Virus record (IMG/VR): IMGVR_UViG_2767802758_000001
Span: 1-64,000 of that record
Origin: a virus
Lineage: Duplodnaviria > Caudoviricetes
Strand: one strand, 5' to 3'
Length of the DNA: 64,000 nucleotides
Of the stretch, positions 5,103 to 47,659 are shown piece by piece (the stretch's first letter is position 1; each line of letters starts with the position of its first letter). The notes beneath the pieces are model-generated. The model made no database searches, was not told the DNA's origin, and saw only the letters and a program-made list of their open reading frames with translations. The position numbers were made by a program, and so were the translations under genes.

Positions 5103-6014
5103 TCAATACATATTAGCTTGCTCACGCTCACCACCTAGCGCCACCACTAGATCGCTGATCATCTTGGCCAGCTCGGAGGTCATCAAGGTCATGTCAGCAT
5201 CAAAGATTTCGTCATCGTTGACGGCCGTCACATCTTGTTTTTCAGTCAAGATATCCAGCGGGGCCACACGTTTGACGTCCAGCGCGTCGGTCAGCACAAA
5301 GCTGATGCTATCCGCCCAGGTCATGGCCAAACGGGTGCATTGCTTACCGGCTTCAACGTGCTTGCGCACTTCGTCAATGTCGGCGCTTTGCTTCACGTAG
5401 CGTACGGCTGCACCACTATCGCCGGTGGAACGCAGCTCGGTATCCTGGTCGACAGTGAAGTTCGCCAGTTGCTCTTCGTCCACCAGCCAGGAGGTCATGG
5501 CCGCACCGGGTGATTGCTCCGTATACAGGGGCTGCACGGGGAAGGGCTCTACGCTCTTAGCGAATAGGCCGAGCACCTCATCACTCTTAGCCACGGCAGC
5601 GGTATCAATGACAAACCAATGGTTTCGTGTGTCGATCCACACCATGGTGTCGCGCTGCACAGCATGGGAGCGGGGCATCAAATCAATGATGATCTGCTCT
5701 TTGATTTCCTTCATCTGCTTGCGGCCCGGCTTGTAGCCCTGTTGCTCTTCGATTTCGCGGGCCTTCTCGCGGGCGGCTTGGTTAACCAAAGCGCTGGGCA
5801 GCAGTTTCTTTTCAGCGCGTACGCAGATTAGATACTGCCCATTCACTTCATGCACCAGATCACCTCCTTCGCGCGGCGCTACCCAGCCCAGGCTGAGCGG
5901 TTCTTGGCTTCCGCATGGTGCGAATTGATGTTCGGCCAACATTTCGACCAGTGCTTGGGCTGAGACCTCAAATTGACGGTCCAGGCGGAAGATACGCAGG
6001 TTTTTAAACCACAT
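5103..6014 (-). CDS. rdgC: Recombination-associated protein RdgC
   Basis: MWFKNLRIFRL N-terminus, EKKLLP motif, 303 aa. Confidence 0.95.
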   Translation of the reverse strand: MWFKNLRIFRLDRQFEVSAQALVEMLAEHQFAPCGSQEPLSLGWVAPREGGDLVHEVNGQYLICVRAEKKLLPSALVNQAAREKAREIEEQQGYKPGRKQMKEIKEQIIIDLMPRSHAVQRDTMVWIDTRNHWFVIDTAAVAKSDEVLGLFAKSVEPFPVQPLYTEQSPGAAMTSWLVDEEQLANFTVDQDTELRSTGDSGAAVRYVKQSADIDEVRKHVEAGKQCTRLAMTWADSISFVLTDALDVKRVAPLDILTEKQDVTAVNDDEIFDADMTLMTSELAKMISDLVVALGGEREQANMY

Positions 6015-6087
6015 GGGTGTATTCCTTTCAGGATGGGCTATGCTGCTTCCACATATTTACTTACAGAGCTTGTGAGAGGAAGCGGGG

Positions 6088-6738
6088 ATGTTTAAAGAGG
6101 TTGCTTTTGAGAGGACGCTGATTGCCGCTTTTCTAGTTGGCGGGGGCGTGGGCATTGGATTTGGCTGGTTTCTGTTCCCCTTTTTATTTCCTTTGCTTGA
6201 CGCATCTGGAACTGCTGTATGGGTACAAGCCATAGCGTCAGTCGCGGCAATATATTGGGCTGGAAGGCAGGGGCGTGCTCTTTTCCAACATCAGAAGAAA
6301 GAGCGGGAAAAAGCTGCTGTGCAACTAGCGGTAGATGTTGTCCGCACTTTACATGGCCATTTAGATAAGTTGGGTAGTTCTAGATGGTGGCCGGGGGATA
6401 GGCTTAAAGCCGTGGCAACGGGGAAAAACTATTTCAAAATCGACTATTTGGACCCGGTGGAAAGGATGCTCGATCAGGTCAATCTTGAGCATCTCAGCGG
6501 TACGCGCTCGGTCGTAATTATGGTGGAGGTGCGGTCAAAAATATGGCGCATTAAAGAGTATTTGACCTGGATTATTGAGAATGTAGATGATGTTCAGCTA
6601 CGGGAGGAAAGAGGAGAAAAAATATTTGATGCCCAGGCGCGCCGCATCAAGAAGGAAGTAGCAGACATATTTACGTGTCTCAGCGAGCTAACAGTTCATA
6701 GAGAAAAATATGAGCCAGTCCCTACTATTGACTCATAG
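6088..6738 (+). CDS. Accessory membrane-anchored hypothetical protein (moron)
   Basis: 216 aa, two N-terminal hydrophobic segments, lower GC, opposite strand to the operon. Confidence 0.7.
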   Translation: MFKEVAFERTLIAAFLVGGGVGIGFGWFLFPFLFPLLDASGTAVWVQAIASVAAIYWAGRQGRALFQHQKKEREKAAVQLAVDVVRTLHGHLDKLGSSRWWPGDRLKAVATGKNYFKIDYLDPVERMLDQVNLEHLSGTRSVVIMVEVRSKIWRIKEYLTWIIENVDDVQLREERGEKIFDAQARRIKKEVADIFTCLSELTVHREKYEPVPTIDS

Positions 6739-6740
6739 AA

Positions 6741-7100
6741 TTATTGATTCCCGGTTTGGCGGTGGAGTGTTCCGTCTAACATCTGCATTTGCTCGGCGAT
6801 GATCTCGGTGGTGAAACGTTCCTGACCGTCCTGGCCTGTCCATTTACGAGTGCGCAGGCGACCTTCTACGTAGACGGGACGGCCTTTGCGAAGGTACTCA
6901 CCGGCAATTTCAGCCAGACGGTTGTAGAACACAACACGGTGCCATTCCGTTTCCTCGCGCTTTTCGCCGGAGGTACGGTCTTTCCACTGCGAAGTCGTGG
7001 CAATGGAAATATTGCAGATGGCCGAGCCTTCCGCGCTGTAGCGTACTTCTGGGTCGCGGCCGAGGTTGCCCACCAGAATGACTTTGTTGACTGAGGCCAT
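6741..7100 (-). CDS. ssb: Single-stranded DNA-binding protein, lacking the C-terminal acidic tail
   Basis: [21 protein letters not shown]...[13 protein letters not shown] fold; ends in [13 protein letters not shown] with no DDDIPF tip. Confidence 0.92.
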
Positions 7101-7736
7101 TTATGCGGCCTCCAGCAGGGCGTCCCGCAGCTCTTGTTGATACTTGGTGACCGTCCGCTCGAACTCCATCAAATCGGATTCCAGCGCATCGATCTGGTCG
7201 TCGTTGCGCTCGATGCGGATAATCTTCATTCGACCCAGGTCGTGAACCCACAAGACCAGATCCACCCACTTGCGGCCGAGCAACCACATTGAGCCATTGC
7301 ACTGGTCTACATAGGCGGCAATATCGCCGTTCACAAAGGCAGTGAACAGGGTGTCGCTGCTGACCATCGTCTTGATTTCAATGATCCCGTCATTGCCCAC
7401 CAAACCGTCTACGCTCACCCCAAATAGGCGGTCCGGCGTTGTGATGAAACCGGCCTCGTCAACGATGTGCCCTGTCTTGCGCTCATAAACGGCACGGGCG
7501 TAGGGCTCTTGCTCGGTGCCCAGGCGCATAGCACCGTTCACAAAGACTTGCATGGGCTCGCCGCCTTCGCGTTCTCGCGCCACATCCATGGCGTAGTCCA
7601 AACACTTCTTGGATGGAGCACCGCTTTTCAGGCGGTCGCGGCAGTCTTTGAATCGGCTGCCGGTGATGACGCCCTTGCGGGCCTGGAGCCATTCCGGGGT
7701 TCCTTGCTCGGCAGTGTGAATGAGTAAGCCTTCCAT
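7101..7736 (-). CDS. YqaJ/lambda-exonuclease family recombination nuclease
   Basis: QGTPEWLQARKGVITGSRF, G..QEP.AR, SVDGLV, IEIK motifs. Confidence 0.9.
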   Translation of the reverse strand: MEGLLIHTAEQGTPEWLQARKGVITGSRFKDCRDRLKSGAPSKKCLDYAMDVAREREGGEPMQVFVNGAMRLGTEQEPYARAVYERKTGHIVDEAGFITTPDRLFGVSVDGLVGNDGIIEIKTMVSSDTLFTAFVNGDIAAYVDQCNGSMWLLGRKWVDLVLWVHDLGRMKIIRIERNDDQIDALESDLMEFERTVTKYQQELRDALLEAA

Positions 7737-8500
7737 TATTGAGCCTCCGTGAGCATCTTCTTCTTGTCCGATACAGCCTTTTTGAAGGCGTTGTAATCGG
7801 CAAGGTTGTTGGTTGCGTAGATGATGTTGCCGCCTTCCTGCCAGATGGTTTCCAACCGTTCCAGCGTTTCGGCTTTGGCCACTTCGCTGACCCACTCGTC
7901 GCGCAGGTTTGCGCTGATCTTCGAGTTCGCGCCGCCTAGCCCGTCATCGTCGTCACCTTTTTCAGAAACGCCAGTGATGGCCTTGAGGGTGTGACGCTGC
8001 AGGTAAGTGACGGTGGATGCGATGGCCTGGATGTTGTTCTTACTTCCGCTTTGGTCCGCATTGGCCTCAAGGGACACAGAGTCGGTATGACCTTGGCGGT
8101 GTTTGAGAATGCAGGTCACGCGGATCAGGTCTTTTTCTTGATGGGTTTTCCAGCTCCAGGCGAAGCCATGCTTTGAAAGAGCAGGGCCAACCGCTTCGAC
8201 CACATCGGAAAGCTCTGCGTGCTTGTAGTGGGTGCGTCCGTTCTTCCCGGTGAAATCGACAGCTTTGCGCTTGATGATTTCGACAGCCTCGGACTTGAAT
8301 GCAGCCAAGGCATCGTTGAAGGCCTTTTCGGCCTCACGCTCTTCCCAGCGTTGCTGCAGGTTCATCATCTGCTCCACTTGGTCGAGCGTGGCGCCTTGTT
8401 TCATGGCGGCCATCATCATGCCCATGGGAGAGTTAGCGGGCACCTGGTCTGCCGGCGCAGCCAGTTCGCGCTGGGGTGCTTCGATTATTTCTGTGCTCAT
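7736..8500 (-). CDS. ERF-family single-strand annealing protein
   Basis: YKHAELSDVVEAVGPALSKHGF...QAIASTVTYLQRHTL; adjacent to exonuclease and SSB. Confidence 0.88.
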   Translation of the reverse strand: MSTEIIEAPQRELAAPADQVPANSPMGMMMAAMKQGATLDQVEQMMNLQQRWEEREAEKAFNDALAAFKSEAVEIIKRKAVDFTGKNGRTHYKHAELSDVVEAVGPALSKHGFAWSWKTHQEKDLIRVTCILKHRQGHTDSVSLEANADQSGSKNNIQAIASTVTYLQRHTLKAITGVSEKGDDDDGLGGANSKISANLRDEWVSEVAKAETLERLETIWQEGGNIIYATNNLADYNAFKKAVSDKKKMLTEAQ

Positions 8501-8507
8501 GGTGTCC

Positions 8508-9587
8508 TCAATATTGGATTCGGATAGCCGGAATCAGGCCCTTGGCGATCAGAATGACGGCCTGCTTAGCGCATGCGTCGGGCAAGCCGTTCTTAATGAA
8601 TGCAGCCAGGGCGGCGTTGTTAATGCTGGCCTTATGCGCTTTGTCCTCTTCGCGGCGGCGCTGCTCGGCTTCTTCGGCTGCCTTTTCGTCGGCCTGGCGC
8701 TTGATTTCGGCCTGGCGGGCAGCTTCGGCGGCATCTTTTGCGCGTTGCTCTGCGGCCAGCTTTTCAGCTTCGGCCCGGGCCTCGGCCTGTTTTTGACGTT
8801 CGATGGCTTCGGCTCGTTCTTGCTCAGCACGGTCGGCGGCTGCTTTTGCATCAGCTTCACGCTTTGCGGCAGCATCACGTTCAGCTTGGGCTTTGGCTTC
8901 CGCATCGGCTCGGGCCTTTTCAGCGGCTTGGCGGGCAATCTCCGCCTCACGGTCTTTCTGCTCCTGCTCGGCCTGCTTGCGTCGTAGCTCAGCCAGTTCT
9001 GCCTGCTCAGCTTCGTACTTCTGGCGTTCAGTCAGGGCTGCATTCAGGATTTCCAGCGCCTTGGCTTTGACCCGGTGGGCCTCGGCTTCAAACTCTTCCC
9101 AGGCCTCGCCAATCACCGCAGATTCAACTGTTGCGATGCGCTGGCGCAGGGATTCAACATCAAGCCCACCGACTTCTCGGGCTTGATCAGCCATACTGTC
9201 CAGGTCGGCACGGTGGAGTGCTACCCGGCTGGCCTCTGCTTCTTCCCAGTCCGTGAGCGGCTTGCGGACTTCATCAGCCAGTGCGTCCAGTTCGTCACGC
9301 ATGCGCTTGCGTTCAGCGTCGATCAGCTTGGGGATTTCCTTGAGTCTGTCCACCTGCTCTTTGCCTAAGCCATCCAGAGCGGCTTTGATCTTGCGCACCT
9401 TGAATGCGCGGCTGGCGATTTCCTTTCGGCCCTTGTCGGTCTTCAGGTTCGGCGCATGCCCGGTGACTTCTTGTCGGATGCGCTCGATATACGGGTCCAG
9501 ACCGTTTGGTGTTTGGTAAGTTTGCAGCGCCGTTTCTGCTGGCGGCAGTTCCGTCAGTTCTAAGACTTCGGTCATGTCATGCTCCAA
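8508..9587 (-). CDS. Coiled-coil phage hypothetical protein (359 aa)
   Basis: Ala/Glu/Lys-rich helical repeats; sits in the recombination module. Confidence 0.8.
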   Translation of the reverse strand: MEHDMTEVLELTELPPAETALQTYQTPNGLDPYIERIRQEVTGHAPNLKTDKGRKEIASRAFKVRKIKAALDGLGKEQVDRLKEIPKLIDAERKRMRDELDALADEVRKPLTDWEEAEASRVALHRADLDSMADQAREVGGLDVESLRQRIATVESAVIGEAWEEFEAEAHRVKAKALEILNAALTERQKYEAEQAELAELRRKQAEQEQKDREAEIARQAAEKARADAEAKAQAERDAAAKREADAKAAADRAEQERAEAIERQKQAEARAEAEKLAAEQRAKDAAEAARQAEIKRQADEKAAEEAEQRRREEDKAHKASINNAALAAFIKNGLPDACAKQAVILIAKGLIPAIRIQY

Positions 9588-9762
9588 TCGCTCGGGCCGC
9601 CAGAGTCGGGCCGAAAAAAAGCAGTCCGCAGACTGCTATGGCAATGATTAGGGTGAGGGGCCAGCCCCAGGGCGGGGTGCTGCTGTTTGGTGCGTAGCAT
9701 CCCTGGCCATCAAACGGGTTACGGCGGCGAGTGCGGGGGAAGCCGGGGTTTTGGTCGGTCAT
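9577..9762 (-). CDS. Small membrane protein
   Basis: C-terminal hydrophobic helix; overlaps neighbours. Confidence 0.5.
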   Translation of the reverse strand: MTDQNPGFPRTRRRNPFDGQGCYAPNSSTPPWGWPLTLIIAIAVCGLLFFGPTLAARAIGA

Positions 9763-10205
9763 GTTGGTTCTCCCGATAGGGCGGCGTCCAAATCATCACG
9801 GGCTGCTTTTCTTCGTCCGTTGAGCCTCCCGAAATCCTCGGGCATGGACTGGTACTCGTTGTTATCTGCGGCGTCTTGAGCTTGTAGGTAGTCTTTGACT
9901 GCTTCGCGCAACTGCTCAATCTCAGCCTCCTGGGCGTCGCGTTCGCCTAACAGAGTGCGGATCGTTTCAGGATCGCAAGCGGCTATATATTCCGAGTTGG
10001 CGTTATTCTGGTGGCGTTGGCTTTCCCAGCCCGCTGGCGTCTTTGGTTGCCCTTGCACAAAGGTGGTGCATATTCCGCGTCCGCCGTCAGCTTGTCGGAC
10101 AGTTCGGCTCGTGCCGCTTTCAATGTCCGCCTCCCATGGGCCAGACGTTGCTGCAACGACAGTCGCACGTAATTTCGCGTAGTTGTAGCTCATGGCTGCC
10201 TCCAA
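9759..10205 (-). CDS. Ead/Ea22-like protein
   Basis: AATSGPWE...NANSEYIAACDPETIRTLLGE pattern typical of this family. Confidence 0.7.
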   Translation of the reverse strand: MEAAMSYNYAKLRATVVAATSGPWEADIESGTSRTVRQADGGRGICTTFVQGQPKTPAGWESQRHQNNANSEYIAACDPETIRTLLGERDAQEAEIEQLREAVKDYLQAQDAADNNEYQSMPEDFGRLNGRRKAARDDLDAALSGEPT

Positions 10206-10284
10206 ATACTGATAACTGTCTCGGCTGCCAGCGCGATAAAGAAAGCGGCGCAGCTGAAAAAGCCGGAGAAAATGAAATACTTGA

Positions 10285-10644
10285 TCAACACGGCAGCGCC
10301 TCCAGTTCTTGCGCGGTCATTGCGTCGTGGCTGGCGTCGGCCCAGCTCAGGATCAGAGCGTTGATGTGGGCGTTCAGGCCGTCCGTGTAAACCGGGTCAT
10401 TGGTGAGCATGGCTTTCAGGAAAGGGCCGATTGCGCCCGACTTCTCGAAAGCAACAAGCTGGTCGCTCATTACTTCCAACAGATCGGCGCGGCTTTTGAT
10501 GTTTGGCAGGTCAGGGCGGCCCCAAGACATCAGCACCGCCTGGGACTTGCCGATCAGGCAATCCTTGATCTGTTGTGCAATAACTTCGCGGCGGCGCTCC
10601 GCCAGCTCGTGCGCGTCTATCTCACGCATAGCAAAAGCGTTCAT
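10285..10644 (-). CDS. Phage hypothetical protein (119 aa)
   Basis: Co-oriented ORF with RBS GGAG. Confidence 0.65.
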   Translation of the reverse strand: MNAFAMREIDAHELAERRREVIAQQIKDCLIGKSQAVLMSWGRPDLPNIKSRADLLEVMSDQLVAFEKSGAIGPFLKAMLTNDPVYTDGLNAHINALILSWADASHDAMTAQELEALPC

Positions 10645-12379: not shown

Positions 12380-12604
12380 TTAAAAGGTGGTTGGTTGGGC
12401 GATACCGCGAATGGCCCACATGAAGCCCTGTTGCAGGTTGGTTTTGCCCAGGGCAACCGCACGTTGGTCCAGAGACCCATCAGCCTGCAGCTTGTCCATC
12501 CAGGCGCCGACCTTCTCGGCCAGTTCCTTGCCTTCGTTCATTGCAGCAATCTCGGACTCCGACAAATCGCGGTAGCCCTTGATGTGCTTGTGTTGGTTAT
12601 CCAT
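12380..12604 (-). CDS. acb2: Acb2/Tad1-family cyclic-oligonucleotide sponge (anti-CBASS)
   Basis: [28 protein letters not shown]...[19 protein letters not shown] closely matches the Acb2 sequence as I recall it (Y11 and K26 in register). Confidence 0.9.
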
Positions 12605-13039: not shown

Positions 13040-13261
13040 TCAGTCGATCGGAGTGCCGCTCTCAATGCCAAGAATTACGTCAATTAATGTGCGGCGAAGG
13101 CTGGTCATGATGCGAAGCTTTGCATCGTCTTGTAGTGCTGGTGATAGCCAGGCGGCCTCCGCAGCGTCAATGACAGCACAGCTTTCTTCGAGCCTTTCTG
13201 CTGCAGCCCGCAGTAAAGCTGAAAGGTCGGCCGGCGGCTTGGTGTTCTGGTTACTCGTCAT
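13040..13261 (-). CDS. LexA-regulated small protein (candidate antirepressor)
   Basis: 73-aa helical ORF with GAGAAGAG RBS, ~100 bp downstream of a perfect SOS box. Confidence 0.55.
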   Translation of the reverse strand: MTSNQNTKPPADLSALLRAAAERLEESCAVIDAAEAAWLSPALQDDAKLRIMTSLRRTLIDVILGIESGTPID

Positions 13262-13364
13262 ATCGCAATGCTCTTCTCTTACAAGTGGGCGTTTTAGATA
13301 CGCGCTCTGATTCGTGGGAGCTACGTGGAGCGCATCAATATGGCGGGGCAGGGAGATAGTTATA

Positions 13365-13380
13365 CTGTATATCTATACAG
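13365..13380. promoter_or_regulatory. LexA (SOS) box
   Basis: CTGTATATCTATACAG = CTGT-N8-ACAG with an AT-rich core. Confidence 0.85.
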
Positions 13381-13440
13381 TATTTTGGGTCAAGGTAATG
13401 TGGCTAACTGTGAGGCCTAGATAGGCTGGGTGGGAGCCGG

Positions 13441-13602
13441 GAAAAGAAAAACCCGCCGAAGCGGGTTGTCCAGGTAACAAAAAAGCCCCGGGAGGGGCTT
13501 TGTCGTATTGGTGCAGGCCACCGAGAAAACTGCAGGCCGTGCGGATTCCTGCAGGTTGATCGGCTATAGGCCAGGCAAAGAAAAGCCGCCCTGGTGGCGG
13601 CT
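13441..13602 (-). terminator. Cluster of three intrinsic terminator hairpins
   Basis: AACCCGC-CGAA-GCGGGTT, AAGCCCC-GGGA-GGGGCTT and AGCCGCC-CTGGT-GGCGGCT, each with an A-tract on the + strand. Confidence 0.7.
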
Positions 13603-13634
13603 GTTAGAGCAAGATCAGGTTGCTTCGAGGGGTT

Positions 13635-14153
13635 TTAGTCATCAGACCAACAACCCCGTCGGACTTGAGTTTCTATAAACAGTAGCTCCATCTGATCACA
13701 CAATTTGGATGCTTTGAGCCATGCATTCAAAACCATTGGATCGTTTGCGGAGACGGGTATGCCGCTTGATGAAGAGCGAGACTCAAACTTTGGGTGGCCA
13801 GTTAATGCATCTGCAAGTTCTGAGAACTTCCCCGTAAGAGTACTGTATCTCGAGTCCATTTTCTGTAAAGCTTGGAGTCGAAACTCTAATTTATCCAGTT
13901 GCTGTTTTATTGAGATTTCTGCAATAGTGGCGTCGTTATTTGCTGTGGTGTTATCAATGGACGTAAAGTAACAAACACCGTCTTCCAATAGTTTATCAAC
14001 CTTATTTCTATATTCATCAACTAGGGCTCGGAGTTCTTTTCTGGATTCTCGTCGGTCGTTATCTCGAGATAAAAAGAACCATCCAACGATAAGAACTAAA
14101 GGGCCGAGCGTAGGAGCAACTACCTGCTTATAGATCGCTAAATTTTCAAGCAT
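13635..14153 (-). CDS. Single-TM helical protein, third gene of the kinase-STAS operon
   Basis: VVAPTLGPLVLIVGWFFLS TM segment followed by charged coiled coil; low GC; 15 bp from the STAS gene. Confidence 0.8.
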   Translation of the reverse strand: MLENLAIYKQVVAPTLGPLVLIVGWFFLSRDNDRRESRKELRALVDEYRNKVDKLLEDGVCYFTSIDNTTANNDATIAEISIKQQLDKLEFRLQALQKMDSRYSTLTGKFSELADALTGHPKFESRSSSSGIPVSANDPMVLNAWLKASKLCDQMELLFIETQVRRGCWSDD

Positions 14154-14168
14154 AGAGGTTAGATAAAA

Positions 14169-14486
14169 TTAATTATCGCTATGGGCATTTTCAATATAGC
14201 CCCAAACTCGTTCAACGTACGATTTTTTCTTTCCAATTACCGTTAGATGCTTGCGGAGTTCATTTTGTTGAAGTCCTGCGCGAACCAGCCCTCCAAAAGC
14301 TTCCTCAAGGAAAGACGAACCGAGTCCGAGAGTGCCATCGAGCACGACTGATACCCCCCCACCCTGCTTAAGGGCGGGCAGTAAAATCTCTTCGCGAAAA
14401 CGCTCTCCTGACCAGGGGCCGTCGGACCTGTAGCGCCCTGCCGCAAACGGGGAAAAATCTTTAGCTATATTAATCATTTTGCTCAT
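14169..14486 (-). CDS. STAS-like (DUF4325) protein
   Basis: IAKDFSPFAAGRY..DG..SGE.FRE...LDGTLGLGSSFLEEAFGGL; 105 aa. Confidence 0.88.
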   Translation of the reverse strand: MSKMINIAKDFSPFAAGRYRSDGPWSGERFREEILLPALKQGGGVSVVLDGTLGLGSSFLEEAFGGLVRAGLQQNELRKHLTVIGKKKSYVERVWGYIENAHSDN

Positions 14487-15579
14487 CTTTCAGCTCTCGA
14501 GCGCCGATTGTTTGTGTATCGAATGACCACTGTACTAGCGTACCCATAATGGATTGGGCATGGTCAAGAACCACTTCGATGCCTGTTCTTCCATTGTACG
14601 TGTACATGCCGCGGTCACTGAAAATTCTTAGAACACCAGAGTTGGCTGATTTGACCAGGTCCAGCATCTCATCCAATCCCTTTCCTCTGTTTCCTTTACC
14701 GGTTCTCGTCGCGCCAAGCTCCAGTGCAGCTTTGATGTATTTTGCGTCAAGATCTGAGCTGGCTCCTAACCGACTCAATATCGCGTCGATTGCGCGCTCT
14801 GACCAAGTGCCGCGCAACGGTAGCGTTCTACGAATTCCGACGCCCAAGTCACAAACTGATAGGTATAGGATACCTTCATCGCTGCATTCAGCAAACACCC
14901 ACCAGCCTTGATTATCGCATTTTATTCCATCAGGGCGAGGCTTGATGTAGGCATGATGAACTGCATTGGTGATTGCCTCTTGCATGGCGCTTAACAGGTC
15001 GTAGGTTAGCTCTTCGCCTAGGCGATCTGTTAAGCGAGTTTGAAGGGCCTGTAAGCCGGTAAGGTCAACATTAGTCCCCGCGTGGAAGGTCCACTCCCTA
15101 ACGCGGCGATGCGATATGGCCAAGCGAGGGCTTACTCCCAGCAGTTTCAACAGTCCTATATGCTGGAAGAGTTGTTCAACCACTGGATCGCTGGGCCGAT
15201 TGGCCTGGAAGTGGCACTCAGGGAACGTCTCTAGCAGCCTGTGAAGCTCTGCAACAAACAGCAGGGTTCCACAAGGATTAAGCCGTCTAATAGGGCTGAG
15301 GTCAATCGAAACTCTTTTTACTATCTTTGCTGCGCGCCTGACTTCGTTGAGAAATTTCAGCAAACGGCGTCGCCATTTCGGCACAATTAGAGTAAAAACC
15401 TGAGGCGCAGGAAGACGTATGTTTTTAATCTGCCCGAGTTTAGGTGCGTGCTGAGGAGAGGCGGCCCCCAGGAACTTTCTTCGTTCTAAGAGCAGCTGCT
15501 TCCTGGCTCTCGATCTCCGAGTCCGTGAGCGTCGAAGTTGAGCAAGCCTTGTTCGCTTTAAGGGGGATGTGTATTTCAT
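14470..15579 (-). CDS. GHKL/HATPase-fold (anti-sigma-factor-type) kinase with N-terminal STAS-like domain
   Basis: N box (EAITNAVHHAY), G1 (CDLGVGI) and G2 (RGKGL) motifs; N-terminal SIDLSPIRRLNPCGTLLF resembles STAS; overlaps the STAS gene by 17 bp. Confidence 0.85.
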   Translation of the reverse strand: MKYTSPLKRTRLAQLRRSRTRRSRARKQLLLERRKFLGAASPQHAPKLGQIKNIRLPAPQVFTLIVPKWRRRLLKFLNEVRRAAKIVKRVSIDLSPIRRLNPCGTLLFVAELHRLLETFPECHFQANRPSDPVVEQLFQHIGLLKLLGVSPRLAISHRRVREWTFHAGTNVDLTGLQALQTRLTDRLGEELTYDLLSAMQEAITNAVHHAYIKPRPDGIKCDNQGWWVFAECSDEGILYLSVCDLGVGIRRTLPLRGTWSERAIDAILSRLGASSDLDAKYIKAALELGATRTGKGNRGKGLDEMLDLVKSANSGVLRIFSDRGMYTYNGRTGIEVVLDHAQSIMGTLVQWSFDTQTIGARELKDEQND

Positions 15580-15715
15580 TTTTATCCGTTTACAGGCAGG
15601 CTAACTTTGAGATGTGGCACTACATCAAATGACCTGCATGCCTTAGGCTCGTTGTAATTTGCTAAGTCGAGTAGAAATTTTTCCAATCTTTCGCCTAATT
15701 GTTGTTGTTTGACTG

Positions 15716-15744
15716 ATAAAAAATAAGGAGCCAAACGGCTCCTT
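15716..15744 (-). terminator. Intrinsic terminator after cI
   Basis: AAGGAGCC-GTTT-GGCTCCTT followed by a T-tract on the minus strand. Confidence 0.75.
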
Positions 15745-15807
15745 GTCTCTTCCTGCTCAGTCCTTCTTACGTACAGCCTCCCTGGGCTGGGTCACGTTAC
15801 CTGTCAT

Positions 15808-16194
15808 TCACTTGCTCTCGTCTTTCTTCACGTCCAGGCCGAGCTGGGCTGCTGACAGGAGGATGGCGGTTTCAAGCTGCATACGCTCTCTGTCCGGATC
15901 TAACGCGCAAACCTTTTGATTATCGATAGAAGAGAAGGGCCAAGACTCCGCTGATACGCGGTCCTTAGCTTTCTCCGGGCCAACCCCTTTGGCTATCCAT
16001 AGCGCGCTGTAGCCCGTCTCCCGCTCAAGATTAAGGGCAACTTCCACATCGCCAATAGTGTGGATGATTTTGCTTCCTTTCCCAGCCCACTGAGAAACGG
16101 CGGAACGACTCACCCCAGCCGCCTTGGCCATCTGGGTGTCATTCCAGGCCATTACAGCCTTCAATTTTTCGATTCTGTCTTTTAGTTCGCTCAT
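15808..16194 (-). CDS. CI-type repressor without an S24 autoprotease domain
   Basis: HTH (TQMAKAAGVSRSAVSQW) and LWIAKGVG; only 128 aa; divergent from cro. Confidence 0.85.
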   Translation of the reverse strand: MSELKDRIEKLKAVMAWNDTQMAKAAGVSRSAVSQWAGKGSKIIHTIGDVEVALNLERETGYSALWIAKGVGPEKAKDRVSAESWPFSSIDNQKVCALDPDRERMQLETAILLSAAQLGLDVKKDESK

Positions 16195-16196
16195 AT

Positions 16197-16260
16197 GTAA
16201 GCGCAATTACACTCTATTTTAAGAAAAGCGTGCTTGCAATGATTGCGTAAGCACGCTAAC
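16197..16260. promoter_or_regulatory. OR: three 14-bp operators between cI and cro
   Basis: GTAAGCGCAATTAC (16197), AAAAGCGTGCTTGC (16224), GTAAGCACGCTAAC (16247). Confidence 0.8.
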
Positions 16261-16268
16261 ATTTGCGC

Positions 16269-16475
16269 ATGAAGAAACAACATGCCATCCAGCTACTAGG
16301 CGGCTCTGTGAGTTCCGCCGCTTCTGCTATCGGGATCATGCCTCAGGCAGTTACCCAATGGCCGGAAGACCTGCCTCCGCGAATCGCAGATCGAGTAATC
16401 GCGGCAGTTGCCCGACAGAACCCAAAGCATTGGCCTACTGCCTGGAAGGCGATAAAGGAGAGCGCAAATGTGTGA
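16269..16475 (+). CDS. Cro-like HTH protein
   Basis: MKKQHAIQLLGGSVSSAASAIGIMPQAVTQWPE. Confidence 0.88.
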   Translation: MKKQHAIQLLGGSVSSAASAIGIMPQAVTQWPEDLPPRIADRVIAAVARQNPKHWPTAWKAIKESANV

Positions 16476-47643: not shown

Positions 47644-47659
47644 CTGTATAAAAAAACAG
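47644..47659. promoter_or_regulatory. LexA (SOS) box
   Basis: CTGTATAAAAAAACAG inside the extended palindrome AAATTACTGT...ACAGTAATTT. Confidence 0.85.

What the first reader, a model, noticed from the sequence alone, without database searches (positions are those of the whole stretch)
13635..15579. GHKL kinase - STAS - membrane protein operon in the lambda rexAB slot: candidate phosphorylation-gated anti-phage system
Seen in the sequence: three tightly coupled low-GC genes lie between cI and PL, cut off from cI by a terminator and ended by three hairpins. Gene 1 has intact GHKL ATP-binding boxes (E..N, DxGxG, GxGL) plus an N-terminal STAS-like domain. Gene 2 is a stand-alone STAS (DUF4325) with GSSFLEE. 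Gene 3 is a single-TM coiled-coil protein. Established: RsbW/SpoIIAB-type GHKL kinases phosphorylate a Ser in STAS partners in partner-switching circuits, and lambda keeps its exclusion system rexAB in this slot. Inference: the kinase and STAS act as a switch that holds a membrane effector inactive until a superinfecting phage trips it. No sigma factor, phosphatase or receiver domain is encoded, so this is not an ordinary two-component or stress module. I do not recognise it as a named defence system.
Basis: partly seen in the sequence, partly recalled or inferred. Interest (0 to 1): 0.88.

Follow-up and report, generated by a model that had tools for sequence, protein, structure and literature searches.

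The report
Kinase-STAS switch with membrane effector
A prophage carries, just after its repressor gene, a conserved three-gene cassette (serine kinase, small STAS partner, membrane-anchored helical protein) that is an untested membrane-effector cousin of the VapKSC anti-phage switch published in 2026, in a slot where sister prophages carry other defence genes.

Summary
Three tightly packed minus-strand genes (14470-15579, 14169-14486, 13635-14153) lie between the terminator of a cI-like repressor gene and three terminator-like hairpins, and their G+C is lower than the flanks.

- **Gene 1** folds with high confidence as an arginine-rich helix, a STAS domain and a SpoIIAB-type GHKL kinase. All ATP-binding boxes are invariant.
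- **Gene 2** is a DUF4325 STAS protein with an invariant GSSFLEEAFGG motif.
- **Gene 3** is an N-out/C-in single-pass membrane protein with a cytoplasmic four-helix bundle. It belongs to no described family.

The trio keeps this order in nearly all of about 190 loci I examined, on prophages, plasmids and islands.

The closest known system is VapKSC/CapKS (Chambers et al., EMBO J 2026). Gene 1 is a remote homologue of a VapK-like kinase and gene 2 shares VapS's Pfam family. The PIN toxin, however, is replaced by the membrane protein.

Sister prophages with the same flanks carry other defence-type cargo in this slot: PDC-S42, BstA-like and PD-Lambda-2-like genes.

It is not a named system in PADLOC v2 or in the literature I could search. 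This scan has flagged the same cassette type on other DNA about 150 times, with the same reading. Function, trigger and effector action remain untested. I classify it as a new variant of a known kind.

The parts
14470..15579 (-). g1: kinase of 369 aa. Arg-rich N-terminal helix (about residues 6-36, K+R 16 in the first 50), STAS-like domain (about 50-150), SpoIIAB/RsbW-type GHKL serine-kinase domain (about 158-360).
   Evidence: ORF. phrog_3364 E 2.7e-48. Pfam HATPase_c_2 below threshold, E 1e-4. Invariant N, G1 and G2 boxes in 40 homologues. AF2 model pLDDT 89, pTM 0.82. VIA: SpoIIAB 1l0o_A Z 12.4, rmsd 2.9, 136 of 141 aligned on residues 158-360; STAS domains Z 7.7-8.3 on residues 50-150. hhalign to a Pseudomonas VapK-like protein: Prob 94.7, E 6e-8. 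N-terminal net charge has a median of +13 in 40 homologues.
14169..14486 (-). g2: stand-alone STAS-like protein of 105 aa (DUF4325). The predicted phospho-acceptor is Ser57 (or Ser58) in the invariant G-x-G-S-S-F-L-E-E-A-F-G-G motif.
   Evidence: Pfam DUF4325 E 1.3e-12. More than 1570 relatives at 53-87% identity. Invariant columns listed. S57 aligns with the Ser of a VapS-like protein that sits next to a PIN gene. Weak match of the same motif to a canonical STAS, 3t6o.
13635..14153 (-). g3: membrane-anchored protein of 172 aa. One N-terminal TM segment (residues 11-29, N-out/C-in) continues into a cytoplasmic four-helix bundle. Conserved G-W in the TM, a juxtamembrane R-E-x-R-K-E-x-R motif and a T-G-x-x-F-E-S motif. 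This is the presumed effector.
   Evidence: No Pfam, NCBIfam, PHROG or PADLOC family. Homologous across distant cassettes. 1751 clusters at E<=1e-3, the top 150 all stand-alone at 131-246 aa. AF2 pLDDT 92. Only generic helical-bundle matches, best Z 12.8. K+R flanking the TM: 0.4 on the N side against 5.2 on the C side, with C greater than N in 40 of 40.
15725..15744 (-). Terminator-like hairpin after the cI-like gene. It belongs to the conserved backbone and marks the left edge of the cargo slot.
   Evidence: The surrounding stretch, about 15717-15799, is 92-100% identical in five sister prophages that carry different cargo.
13450..13602 (-). Three terminator-like hairpins that end the cassette (13602-13584, 13501-13482, 13467-13450).
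15808..16206 (-). cI-like HTH repressor of 132 aa without an S24 peptidase domain (context: the gene upstream of the slot). A Cro-like gene lies divergently at 16263-16475 (+).
   Evidence: Phage_CI_repr E 1e-3 and P22_Cro E 4e-7 for the divergent gene. PHROG transcriptional repressor families.
13364..13393 (-). Leftward promoter-like site with a LexA-type box (CTGT-N8-ACAG at 13365-13380). It lies in the conserved right flank of the cargo slot.
   Evidence: The stretch about 13251-13429 is conserved in sister prophages.

Best explanation
The three genes form a self-contained, horizontally mobile conflict module of the CapKS/VapKSC type, carried here as prophage cargo in the slot after the repressor gene.

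Shown here by computation:
- g1 is a STAS-GHKL serine kinase with an intact ATP site and an extra arginine-rich helix.
- g2 is a small STAS protein with an invariant Ser-Ser at the canonical phospho-acceptor position.
- g3 is a single-pass inner-membrane protein whose helical bundle faces the cytoplasm.
- The three travel together in fixed order on prophages, plasmids and islands.

Inferred by analogy with VapKSC: in the resting lysogen g2 binds the cytoplasmic bundle of g3 and keeps it inactive. A cue produced during infection activates g1. That cue may be single-stranded nucleic acid, as for CapK/VapK, perhaps read with help from the arginine-rich helix. Active g1 phosphorylates g2 on Ser57, g2 lets go, and g3 acts on the membrane (oligomerisation, depolarisation or leakage). 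This stops growth before the invader completes its cycle, a RexAB-like abortive outcome reached by unrelated proteins.
For: Architecture:
- g1 model pLDDT 89. The kinase domain matches SpoIIAB at Z 12.4, followed by RsbW, UsfX and SiaB. The N-terminal domain matches STAS at Z about 8.
- Catalytic E201/N205 and the G boxes are invariant in 40 homologues.
- g2 is DUF4325 with invariant GSSFLEEAFGG.

Homology to the characterised system:
- Two Pseudomonas loci found here have a kinase, a 116-aa DUF4325 protein and a PIN gene, which is the VapKSC layout.
- The g1 profile aligns to that kinase over 240 columns spanning both domains: Prob 94.7%, E 6e-8.
- g2 S57 aligns with that VapS-like protein's Ser.
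- In VapKSC, VapS is the antitoxin, S48E abolishes binding, and kinase, Ser and toxin mutants all lose phage protection (PMC13373217).

Fixed trio:
- 78 of 80 genome loci have g1 directly upstream of g2. 62 of 80 have an HMM-detectable g3 directly downstream, and most of the rest show the same architecture.
- 71 of 80 viral loci and 17 of 26 Pseudomonas DUF4325 loci hold the full cassette.
- Two natural g1-g2 fusions argue that these two proteins act together.

Topology: the g3 bundle is cytoplasmic, so it can be reached by g1 and g2.

Location:
- The cassette follows a cI-type repressor gene here, in a Kerstersia prophage, in Marinobacter phage AS1, in a Pasteurella phage-plasmid and in Francisella phage KIRK.
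- 13 of 62 upstream neighbours in viral contigs carry Peptidase_S24.
- Sister prophages with the same flanks carry PDC-S42 (E 7e-92), BstA-like, PD-Lambda-2_B-like and DUF3800/PDC-M04A-like genes in the slot.

Acquisition: the low G+C marks recently acquired cargo.
Against: - No experiment exists for this clade. Toxicity of g3, g2-g3 binding, phosphorylation and phage protection are all untested.
- g3 has no similarity to any known toxin or pore-former. Its bundle resembles sensor-type four-helix bundles only at a level that is unspecific for helical proteins, so it could be a sensor or an anchor rather than an effector.
- No g2-g3 fusions were found.
- Similarity of g2 to the VapS-like protein is weak (hhalign E 5e-4, probability 31%).
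- If g1 responded to DNA-damage ssDNA as CapK does, a prophage-borne copy would fire during the prophage's own SOS induction. The flanking promoter here has a LexA box. So the trigger may well differ.
- Immediate neighbours across 80 chromosomal loci are heterogeneous, with only a modest share of defence or mobile-element genes among the nearest ORFs.
- A terminator separates the cassette from cI, and no clear sigma-70 promoter was found upstream of g1. Expression in the lysogen is therefore unproven.
Confidence: 0.55

Rival explanations
1. Same parts, different wiring: a classical partner switch. The kinase g1 itself sequesters g3, as SpoIIAB sequesters sigma F, and unphosphorylated g2 displaces it. 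Alternatively, phosphorylated g2 is the activator of g3.
For: The best structural matches of g1 are anti-sigma kinases that bind both a target and a STAS antagonist. g2 is far more conserved than g1 or g3, with mean column identity 55% against 32% and 24%, as expected for a hub that contacts two partners.
Against: In the only characterised relative, the STAS protein rather than the kinase binds the toxin (PMC13373217). No phosphatase is encoded to reset a switch.
Confidence: 0.15
2. A stress-responsive toxin-antitoxin or addiction module that stabilises the mobile element or responds to general DNA damage, with no dedicated anti-phage role.
For: The cassette also sits on small plasmids beside RelE/ParE and MNT/HepT pairs. 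Chambers et al. stress that VapKSC responds to a global stress signal. Chromosomal neighbourhoods are heterogeneous.
Against: The slot in sister prophages holds defence-type cargo. The cassette recurs after prophage repressor genes. VapKSC does protect against a phage.
Confidence: 0.15
3. Non-lethal superinfection exclusion: g3 acts at the inner membrane to block entry of incoming phage DNA, and g1/g2 only tune its activity.
For: g3 is a small inner-membrane protein encoded by a prophage next to its immunity gene, the position and size class typical of Sie-type proteins (general knowledge of P22 SieA, T4 Imm and HK97 gp15).
Against: The trio is equally common outside prophages. A kinase switch is an unusual accessory for a constitutive entry block. 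There is no similarity to known Sie proteins.
Confidence: 0.08
4. A regulator of the prophage's own life cycle, such as lysis timing or the lysogeny decision, rather than a conflict system.
For: It lies adjacent to the cI/cro switch and to a LexA-box promoter.
Against: The cassette is cargo. It is absent from sister prophages with 98% identical cI, has foreign G+C, and occurs unchanged on plasmids and chromosomal islands in many phyla.
Confidence: 0.04

Closest known systems
VapKSC (VapK STAS-GHKL kinase, VapS DUF4325-type STAS antitoxin, VapC PIN toxin); Chambers et al., EMBO J 2026, PMC13373217
   Same: It is a three-gene operon in the same order. The kinase has the same STAS + GHKL architecture and is detectably homologous (hhalign Prob 94.7%, E 6e-8). 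The second gene is a roughly 105-116 aa DUF4325 STAS protein with a conserved Ser at the same aligned position. Both are mobile and often sit near defence genes.
   Different: The third gene is a single-pass membrane protein with a cytoplasmic helical bundle and is unrelated to the PIN nuclease. g1 has an extra arginine-rich helix of about 48 residues at the N-terminus. g2 lacks an obvious counterpart of the VapS C-terminal inhibitory helix; I did not examine this in detail. In the Pseudomonas sample this clade outnumbers VapKSC (17 against 2 of 26 DUF4325 loci). No experiments exist for it.
CapK-CapS (HTH-STAS-GHKL kinase and STAS-wHTH repressor controlling CBASS, Bub and other immune operons); same paper
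   Same: A kinase-STAS pair in which an ssDNA-activated kinase phosphorylates a conserved STAS serine.
   Different: g2 has no wHTH DNA-binding domain, being 105 aa and STAS only. g1 has no HTH. No downstream immune operon follows; a single membrane protein and then terminators do.
SpoIIAB-SpoIIAA and RsbW-RsbV partner-switching modules
   Same: These are the best structural matches for the g1 kinase domain (Z 12.4 and 9.6), and STAS matches cover g1 residues 50-150. The chemistry is presumably the same: Ser phosphorylation of a STAS protein.
   Different: The cargo encodes no sigma factor and no PP2C phosphatase. The kinase carries its own STAS domain. The context is a mobile element rather than a sporulation or stress regulon.
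Lambda RexAB
   Same: The position immediately downstream of the prophage repressor gene is the same. A membrane protein is the presumed executor of an abortive outcome.
   Different: There is no sequence or family relationship (no hits). Here a terminator separates the cassette from cI. The system has three components and a kinase switch.

Membership tests
VapKSC | Kinase with N-terminal STAS and C-terminal GHKL domain, homologous to VapK | tested here: met
   Fold matches. Profile alignment to a Pseudomonas kinase from a kinase-DUF4325-PIN operon: Prob 94.7%, E 6e-8, 240 columns. The Escherichia VapK sequence itself was not compared.
VapKSC | Small STAS protein (DUF4325 type) with a conserved Ser/Thr phospho-acceptor | tested here: met
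   DUF4325 E 1.3e-12. S57 and S58 invariant in 22 sequences. S57 aligns with the Ser of the VapS-like protein.
VapKSC | Third gene is a VapC-like PIN nuclease toxin | tested here: not met
   g3 has no PIN match, no profile similarity to the VapC-like protein (E 0.83), and is predicted all-helical with a TM segment.
VapKSC | The STAS protein binds and inhibits the toxin, and phosphorylation releases it | not testable with these tools
No natural g2-g3 fusions were found.
VapKSC | Protects against phage; kinase activated by ssDNA | not testable with these tools
   Bench work is required.
CapK-CapS | CapS carries a C-terminal wHTH and represses a downstream immune operon; CapK carries an N-terminal HTH | tested here: not met
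   g2 is 105 aa with only the STAS domain. g1 has a single basic helix and no HTH. Terminators follow g3.
SpoIIAB/RsbW partner switching | Kinase fold of the anti-sigma serine kinases | tested here: met
   1l0o_A Z 12.4, rmsd 2.9, 136 of 141 aligned; 6m36_A Z 9.6.
SpoIIAB/RsbW partner switching | Cognate sigma factor and PP2C phosphatase in the module | tested here: not met
   The cargo span, about 13430-15716, holds only the three genes.
Lambda RexAB | Homology to RexA/RexB | tested here: not met
   No Pfam, PHROG or PADLOC match to Rex proteins for any of the three. Only the position is analogous.
Any named system in PADLOC-DB v2.0.0 (2023) | Significant HMM match | tested here: not met
   The best hits are E 0.01-0.05 and partial. 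Newer catalogues such as the current DefenseFinder could not be queried.

The most novel reading that the evidence does not exclude
This membrane-effector clade, rather than the published PIN version, is the main natural form of the kinase-STAS switch. It outnumbers VapKSC 17 to 2 among the Pseudomonas DUF4325 loci sampled, and g3 alone has about 1750 clusters at 50% identity. It would also use a trigger other than DNA-damage ssDNA, for example phage nucleic acid read by the conserved arginine-rich helix of the kinase. That would let a prophage carry it without sabotaging its own SOS induction. g3 would then be a new class of phosphorylation-released membrane-disrupting effector.
Probability: 0.3. 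Interest if true: 0.72.

Novelty: new variant of a known kind. Interest (0 to 1): 0.6.

Why it matters
If confirmed, the 2026 kinase-STAS paradigm (CapKS regulating transcription, VapKSC releasing a nuclease) would extend to a third output: a membrane effector.

The family is large and phylogenetically wide. More than 537 species genomes carry a g2 relative, at least 200 IMG/VR contigs do, and g3 alone forms 1751 clusters at 50% identity.

It would also add a well-defined occupant to the cargo hotspot after the prophage repressor gene, which in lambda holds rexAB. It poses a testable question: how does a prophage tolerate a possibly DNA-damage-sensing suicide switch during its own induction?

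The parts are small and the predicted key residues are clear (N205, S57/S58, the g3 TM segment and the R-E-x-R-K-E motif). The decisive experiments are therefore simple.

Tried and rejected
- **Phage records:** DNA-level search of the region found nothing.
- **PDB sequence searches:** for all three proteins and for the g2 profile, only sub-threshold hits came back. The VapS/CapS entries 9Z7O and 9Z71-73 were not recovered. They may be absent from the copy or too distant, so this says nothing either way.
- **g3 word-index search:** found only one relative. The exhaustive profile search showed this was a sensitivity limit.
- **g3 fold searches:** PDB VIA-wide and the ESM Atlas gave only generic four-helix-bundle matches, best Z 12.8, below the level that is meaningful for helical bundles. 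One unnamed Atlas cluster scored TM 0.77. No function can be read from this.
- **Nitrosomonadaceae sample:** gave no clean VapKSC locus, only a kinase-DUF4325 pair cut by an IS and HTH-GHKL-DUF4325 fusions. VapKSC-type loci were then found in Pseudomonas.
- **Neighbourhood enrichment:** the nearest flanking ORFs gave only low counts per family. I do not claim defence-island enrichment for chromosomal copies.
- **Promoter upstream of g1:** no sigma-70-like site was found in the 145-bp spacer.
- **ssDNA-contacting aromatic:** I did not map the CapK W68 / VapK F54 residue onto g1, because the Escherichia VapK sequence had no usable reference here.
Full report
**1. What is there**

On the minus strand of the window lie three ORFs:
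- g1, 14470-15579, 369 aa.
- g2, 14169-14486, 105 aa, overlapping g1 by 17 nt.
- g3, 13635-14153, 172 aa, starting 15 nt after g2.

Upstream is a 132-aa cI-like HTH repressor (15808-16206, minus). A Cro-like gene lies divergently at 16263-16475. G+C drops to 0.39-0.50 over the cassette, against 0.54-0.59 around it.

A terminator-like hairpin (15744-15725) lies between cI and g1. Three more (13602-13584, 13501-13482, 13467-13450) follow g3. Next comes a leftward promoter-like site (13393-13364) whose -10 region overlaps a CTGT-N8-ACAG palindrome of LexA-box type. One correction applies: the soluble part of g3 is predicted as a four-helix bundle, not a coiled coil.

**2. The three proteins**

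*g1.* The Pfam match is below threshold (HATPase_c_2, E 1e-4), but g1 is a clear member of phrog_3364 (E 2.7e-48).

An alignment of 40 homologues shows invariant E201, N205, D244, G246, R298-G-K-G-L302 and G346-T347. These are the Bergerat-fold N, G1, G2 and G3 boxes. The alignment also shows a conserved MKK start, so the 369-aa reading is the real one. A database gene call of 297 aa is truncated.

The AlphaFold2 model (pLDDT 89, pTM 0.82) has three parts:
- A long basic helix, residues 6-36.
- A domain at 50-150 that matches STAS domains: YchM Z 8.3, TM1442 Z 8.2, SpoIIAA Z 7.7.
- A domain at 158-360 whose best match is the anti-sigma serine kinase SpoIIAB (Z 12.4, rmsd 2.9, 136 of 141 residues), followed by RsbW, UsfX and SiaB.

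The N-terminal segment has a net charge with a median of +13 in the 40 homologues.

*g2.* It is a DUF4325 STAS-like protein (E 1.3e-12) with more than 1570 close relatives. The motif G-x-G-S57-S58-F-L-E-E-A-F-G-G is invariant.

*g3.* It matches no family in Pfam, NCBIfam, PHROGs or PADLOC. It has one hydrophobic segment, residues 11-29.

In all 40 aligned homologues the basic residues lie on the C-terminal side of this segment (mean 5.2 against 0.4). The short N-terminus should therefore be outside and the rest cytoplasmic.

The model (pLDDT 92) shows the TM helix running into a four-helix bundle. Fold searches return only generic bundles. Conserved features are G-W in the TM, a juxtamembrane R-E-x-R-K-E-x-R motif and a T-G-x-x-F-E-S motif.

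**3. The trio is a fixed, mobile unit**

Homologues of g1 are followed by a DUF4325 gene and a g3-like gene in these places:
- Kerstersia, where the cassette again sits right after an S24 repressor.
- Achromobacter, beside an integrase.
- Chitinibacter.
- A metagenomic island with MmeI-type restriction genes and resolvases.
- Marinobacter phage AS1, after a cI-like gene.
- A Helicobacter prophage.

A scan of species-representative genomes with the g2 alignment gave at least 537 confirmed hits. Among the best 80 loci:
- 78 have g1 directly upstream.
- 62 have an HMM-detectable g3 directly downstream.
- Most of the remainder have an ORF of the same size and architecture there.

In IMG/VR, 200 contigs were confirmed, and 71 of the best 80 loci hold the whole trio. 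The g3 profile finds 1751 clusters at 50% identity, and the top 150 are all stand-alone proteins.

Plasmid copies occur in Acinetobacter, Leptospira and others, beside classical toxin-antitoxin pairs. Two natural g1-g2 fusions exist, but no g2-g3 fusion does.

**4. Closest known system**

A literature search led to Chambers et al., EMBO J 2026 (PMC13373217). That paper describes two systems:
- *CapK/CapS.* CapK (HTH-STAS-GHKL) is activated by ssDNA and phosphorylates a conserved serine of CapS (STAS-wHTH), which de-represses immune operons.
- *VapKSC.* The related VapKSC has a STAS-GHKL kinase, a small STAS antitoxin and a VapC PIN toxin. It protects E. coli against phage Bas42, and kinase, serine and toxin mutants all lose protection.

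An older PIN survey had already noted a VapC group 'transcriptionally coupled to DUF4325' (PMC5499597).

I recovered two VapKSC-type loci in Pseudomonas: a kinase of 330/339 aa, a DUF4325 protein of 116 aa and a PIN protein. I compared them with the window's proteins:
- The g1 profile aligns to that kinase over 240 columns covering both domains (Prob 94.7%, E 6e-8).
- The g2 profile aligns weakly to the VapS-like protein (E 5e-4), with S57 opposite its serine.
- g3 is unrelated to the PIN protein.

The paper never mentions a membrane partner. PADLOC v2 has no model for any of the three genes. In the Pseudomonas sample, 17 of 26 DUF4325 loci are the membrane-type trio and 2 are VapKSC.

**5. 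The slot**

Five IMG/VR prophages share the window's cI or its 3' end. They also share the conserved stretch containing the cI terminator (window about 15717-15799) and, where the locus reaches that far, the LexA-box promoter region (about 13251-13429). Between these flanks they carry different, low-G+C cargo:
- An HSDR_N-domain protein plus a DUF3800 protein that hits PDC-M04A.
- A PDC-S42 protein (E 7e-92) plus a KilA-N/BstA-like protein.
- A PD-Lambda-2_B-like protein (E 4.5e-45).
- A P63C protein plus a BstA-like protein.
- An unknown 350-aa protein.

In this phage lineage the position is therefore a hotspot for defence-type cargo.

More widely, the trio follows a repressor gene in Kerstersia, Marinobacter phage AS1, a Pasteurella phage-plasmid and Francisella phage KIRK. 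In addition, 13 of 62 upstream neighbours in viral contigs have an S24 peptidase domain.

**6. How it most likely works**

Shown by computation: an intact serine-kinase fold with its own STAS domain, a STAS partner with an invariant serine pair, a cytoplasm-facing membrane-anchored bundle, strict co-inheritance, and cargo status in a defence hotspot.

Inferred from VapKSC: g2 holds g3 inactive, an infection cue activates g1, g1 phosphorylates g2 Ser57, and released g3 damages or depolarises the membrane.

Weak points:
- Nothing shows that g3 is toxic or binds g2.
- The trigger is unknown.
- A DNA-damage trigger would clash with the prophage's own SOS-linked induction.
- Expression in the lysogen is unverified, because a terminator precedes the cassette and no clear promoter was found.

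I put 0.55 on the overall reading that this is a kinase-STAS-gated membrane-effector conflict module. I put less on the exact wiring.

**7. Novelty and verdict**

This is a new variant of a known kind, not a categorically new system. I found no published description or name for it in the sources I could search.

This scan has met the same cassette type before on other DNA: 153 notes in at least 131 genomes. The follow-up agents reached the same reading. I reached mine independently from the literature search, before seeing those notes. The VapK/VapS homology comparisons also preceded; the slot test came after it.

Interest is moderate to high for phage-defence specialists and lower for others.

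Noticed in passing
window 12380-12604 (-): A 74-aa ORF in the leftward early operon matches the Acb2/Tad1 hairpin domain (PF24729, E 1.9e-18). This is the family of phage sponges for CBASS and Thoeris signalling nucleotides, so the prophage appears to carry a counter-defence gene about 1 kb from the defence-type cargo slot.
   Followed up: no
window 13365-13380 and 47644-47659: LexA-box-type palindromes (CTGT-N8-ACAG) occur 5 times in the window against 0.87 expected. The one at 13365-13380 overlaps the -10 of a leftward promoter-like site just downstream of the cassette. The cI-like repressor (132 aa) has no S24 cleavage domain. Induction may therefore run through a LexA-controlled antirepressor; the first ORF downstream is 13040-13261, 73 aa, with no family match.
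   Followed up: partly
L132-L136 (IMG/VR sister prophages), about 5240-10350 in each locus: The same slot after cI holds other cargo: PDC-S42 (E 7e-92), KilA-N/BstA-like proteins, a PD-Lambda-2_B-like HTH-M78 protein, DUF3800/PDC-M04A, an HSDR_N-domain protein, a P63C-domain protein, and unknown proteins of 160, 197 and 350 aa that could be further candidates.
   Followed up: partly
window 14470-15579 (-): The public gene call for g1 (P0001, 297 aa) starts 72 codons too late. Homologues conserve the MKK start and the arginine-rich helix.
   Followed up: yes
L094:1465-2475 (-), L113, L120, L105: DUF4325 appears in other architectures: a fused wHTH-GHKL-DUF4325 protein of 336 aa next to a Fic gene (Nitrosomonadaceae), kinase + DUF4325 pairs with no third gene on the same strand (Pseudomonas), and a lone DUF4325 gene beside an ImmA/IrrE peptidase on a Vibrio vulnificus replicon. 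The STAS-kinase module seems to be reused with several outputs.
   Followed up: partly
L042:3882-5306 (+), L125:1441-2379 (-): Natural single-chain fusions of the kinase and the DUF4325 protein (474 aa and 312 aa). The 474-aa one is still followed by a g3-type gene. These are useful constructs for structure prediction of the kinase-substrate pose.
   Followed up: no
L001:8239-8767 (Kerstersia prophage): Directly after the homologous cassette in the Kerstersia prophage lies a BrnT/BrnA toxin-antitoxin pair, so that slot holds stacked cargo.
   Followed up: no
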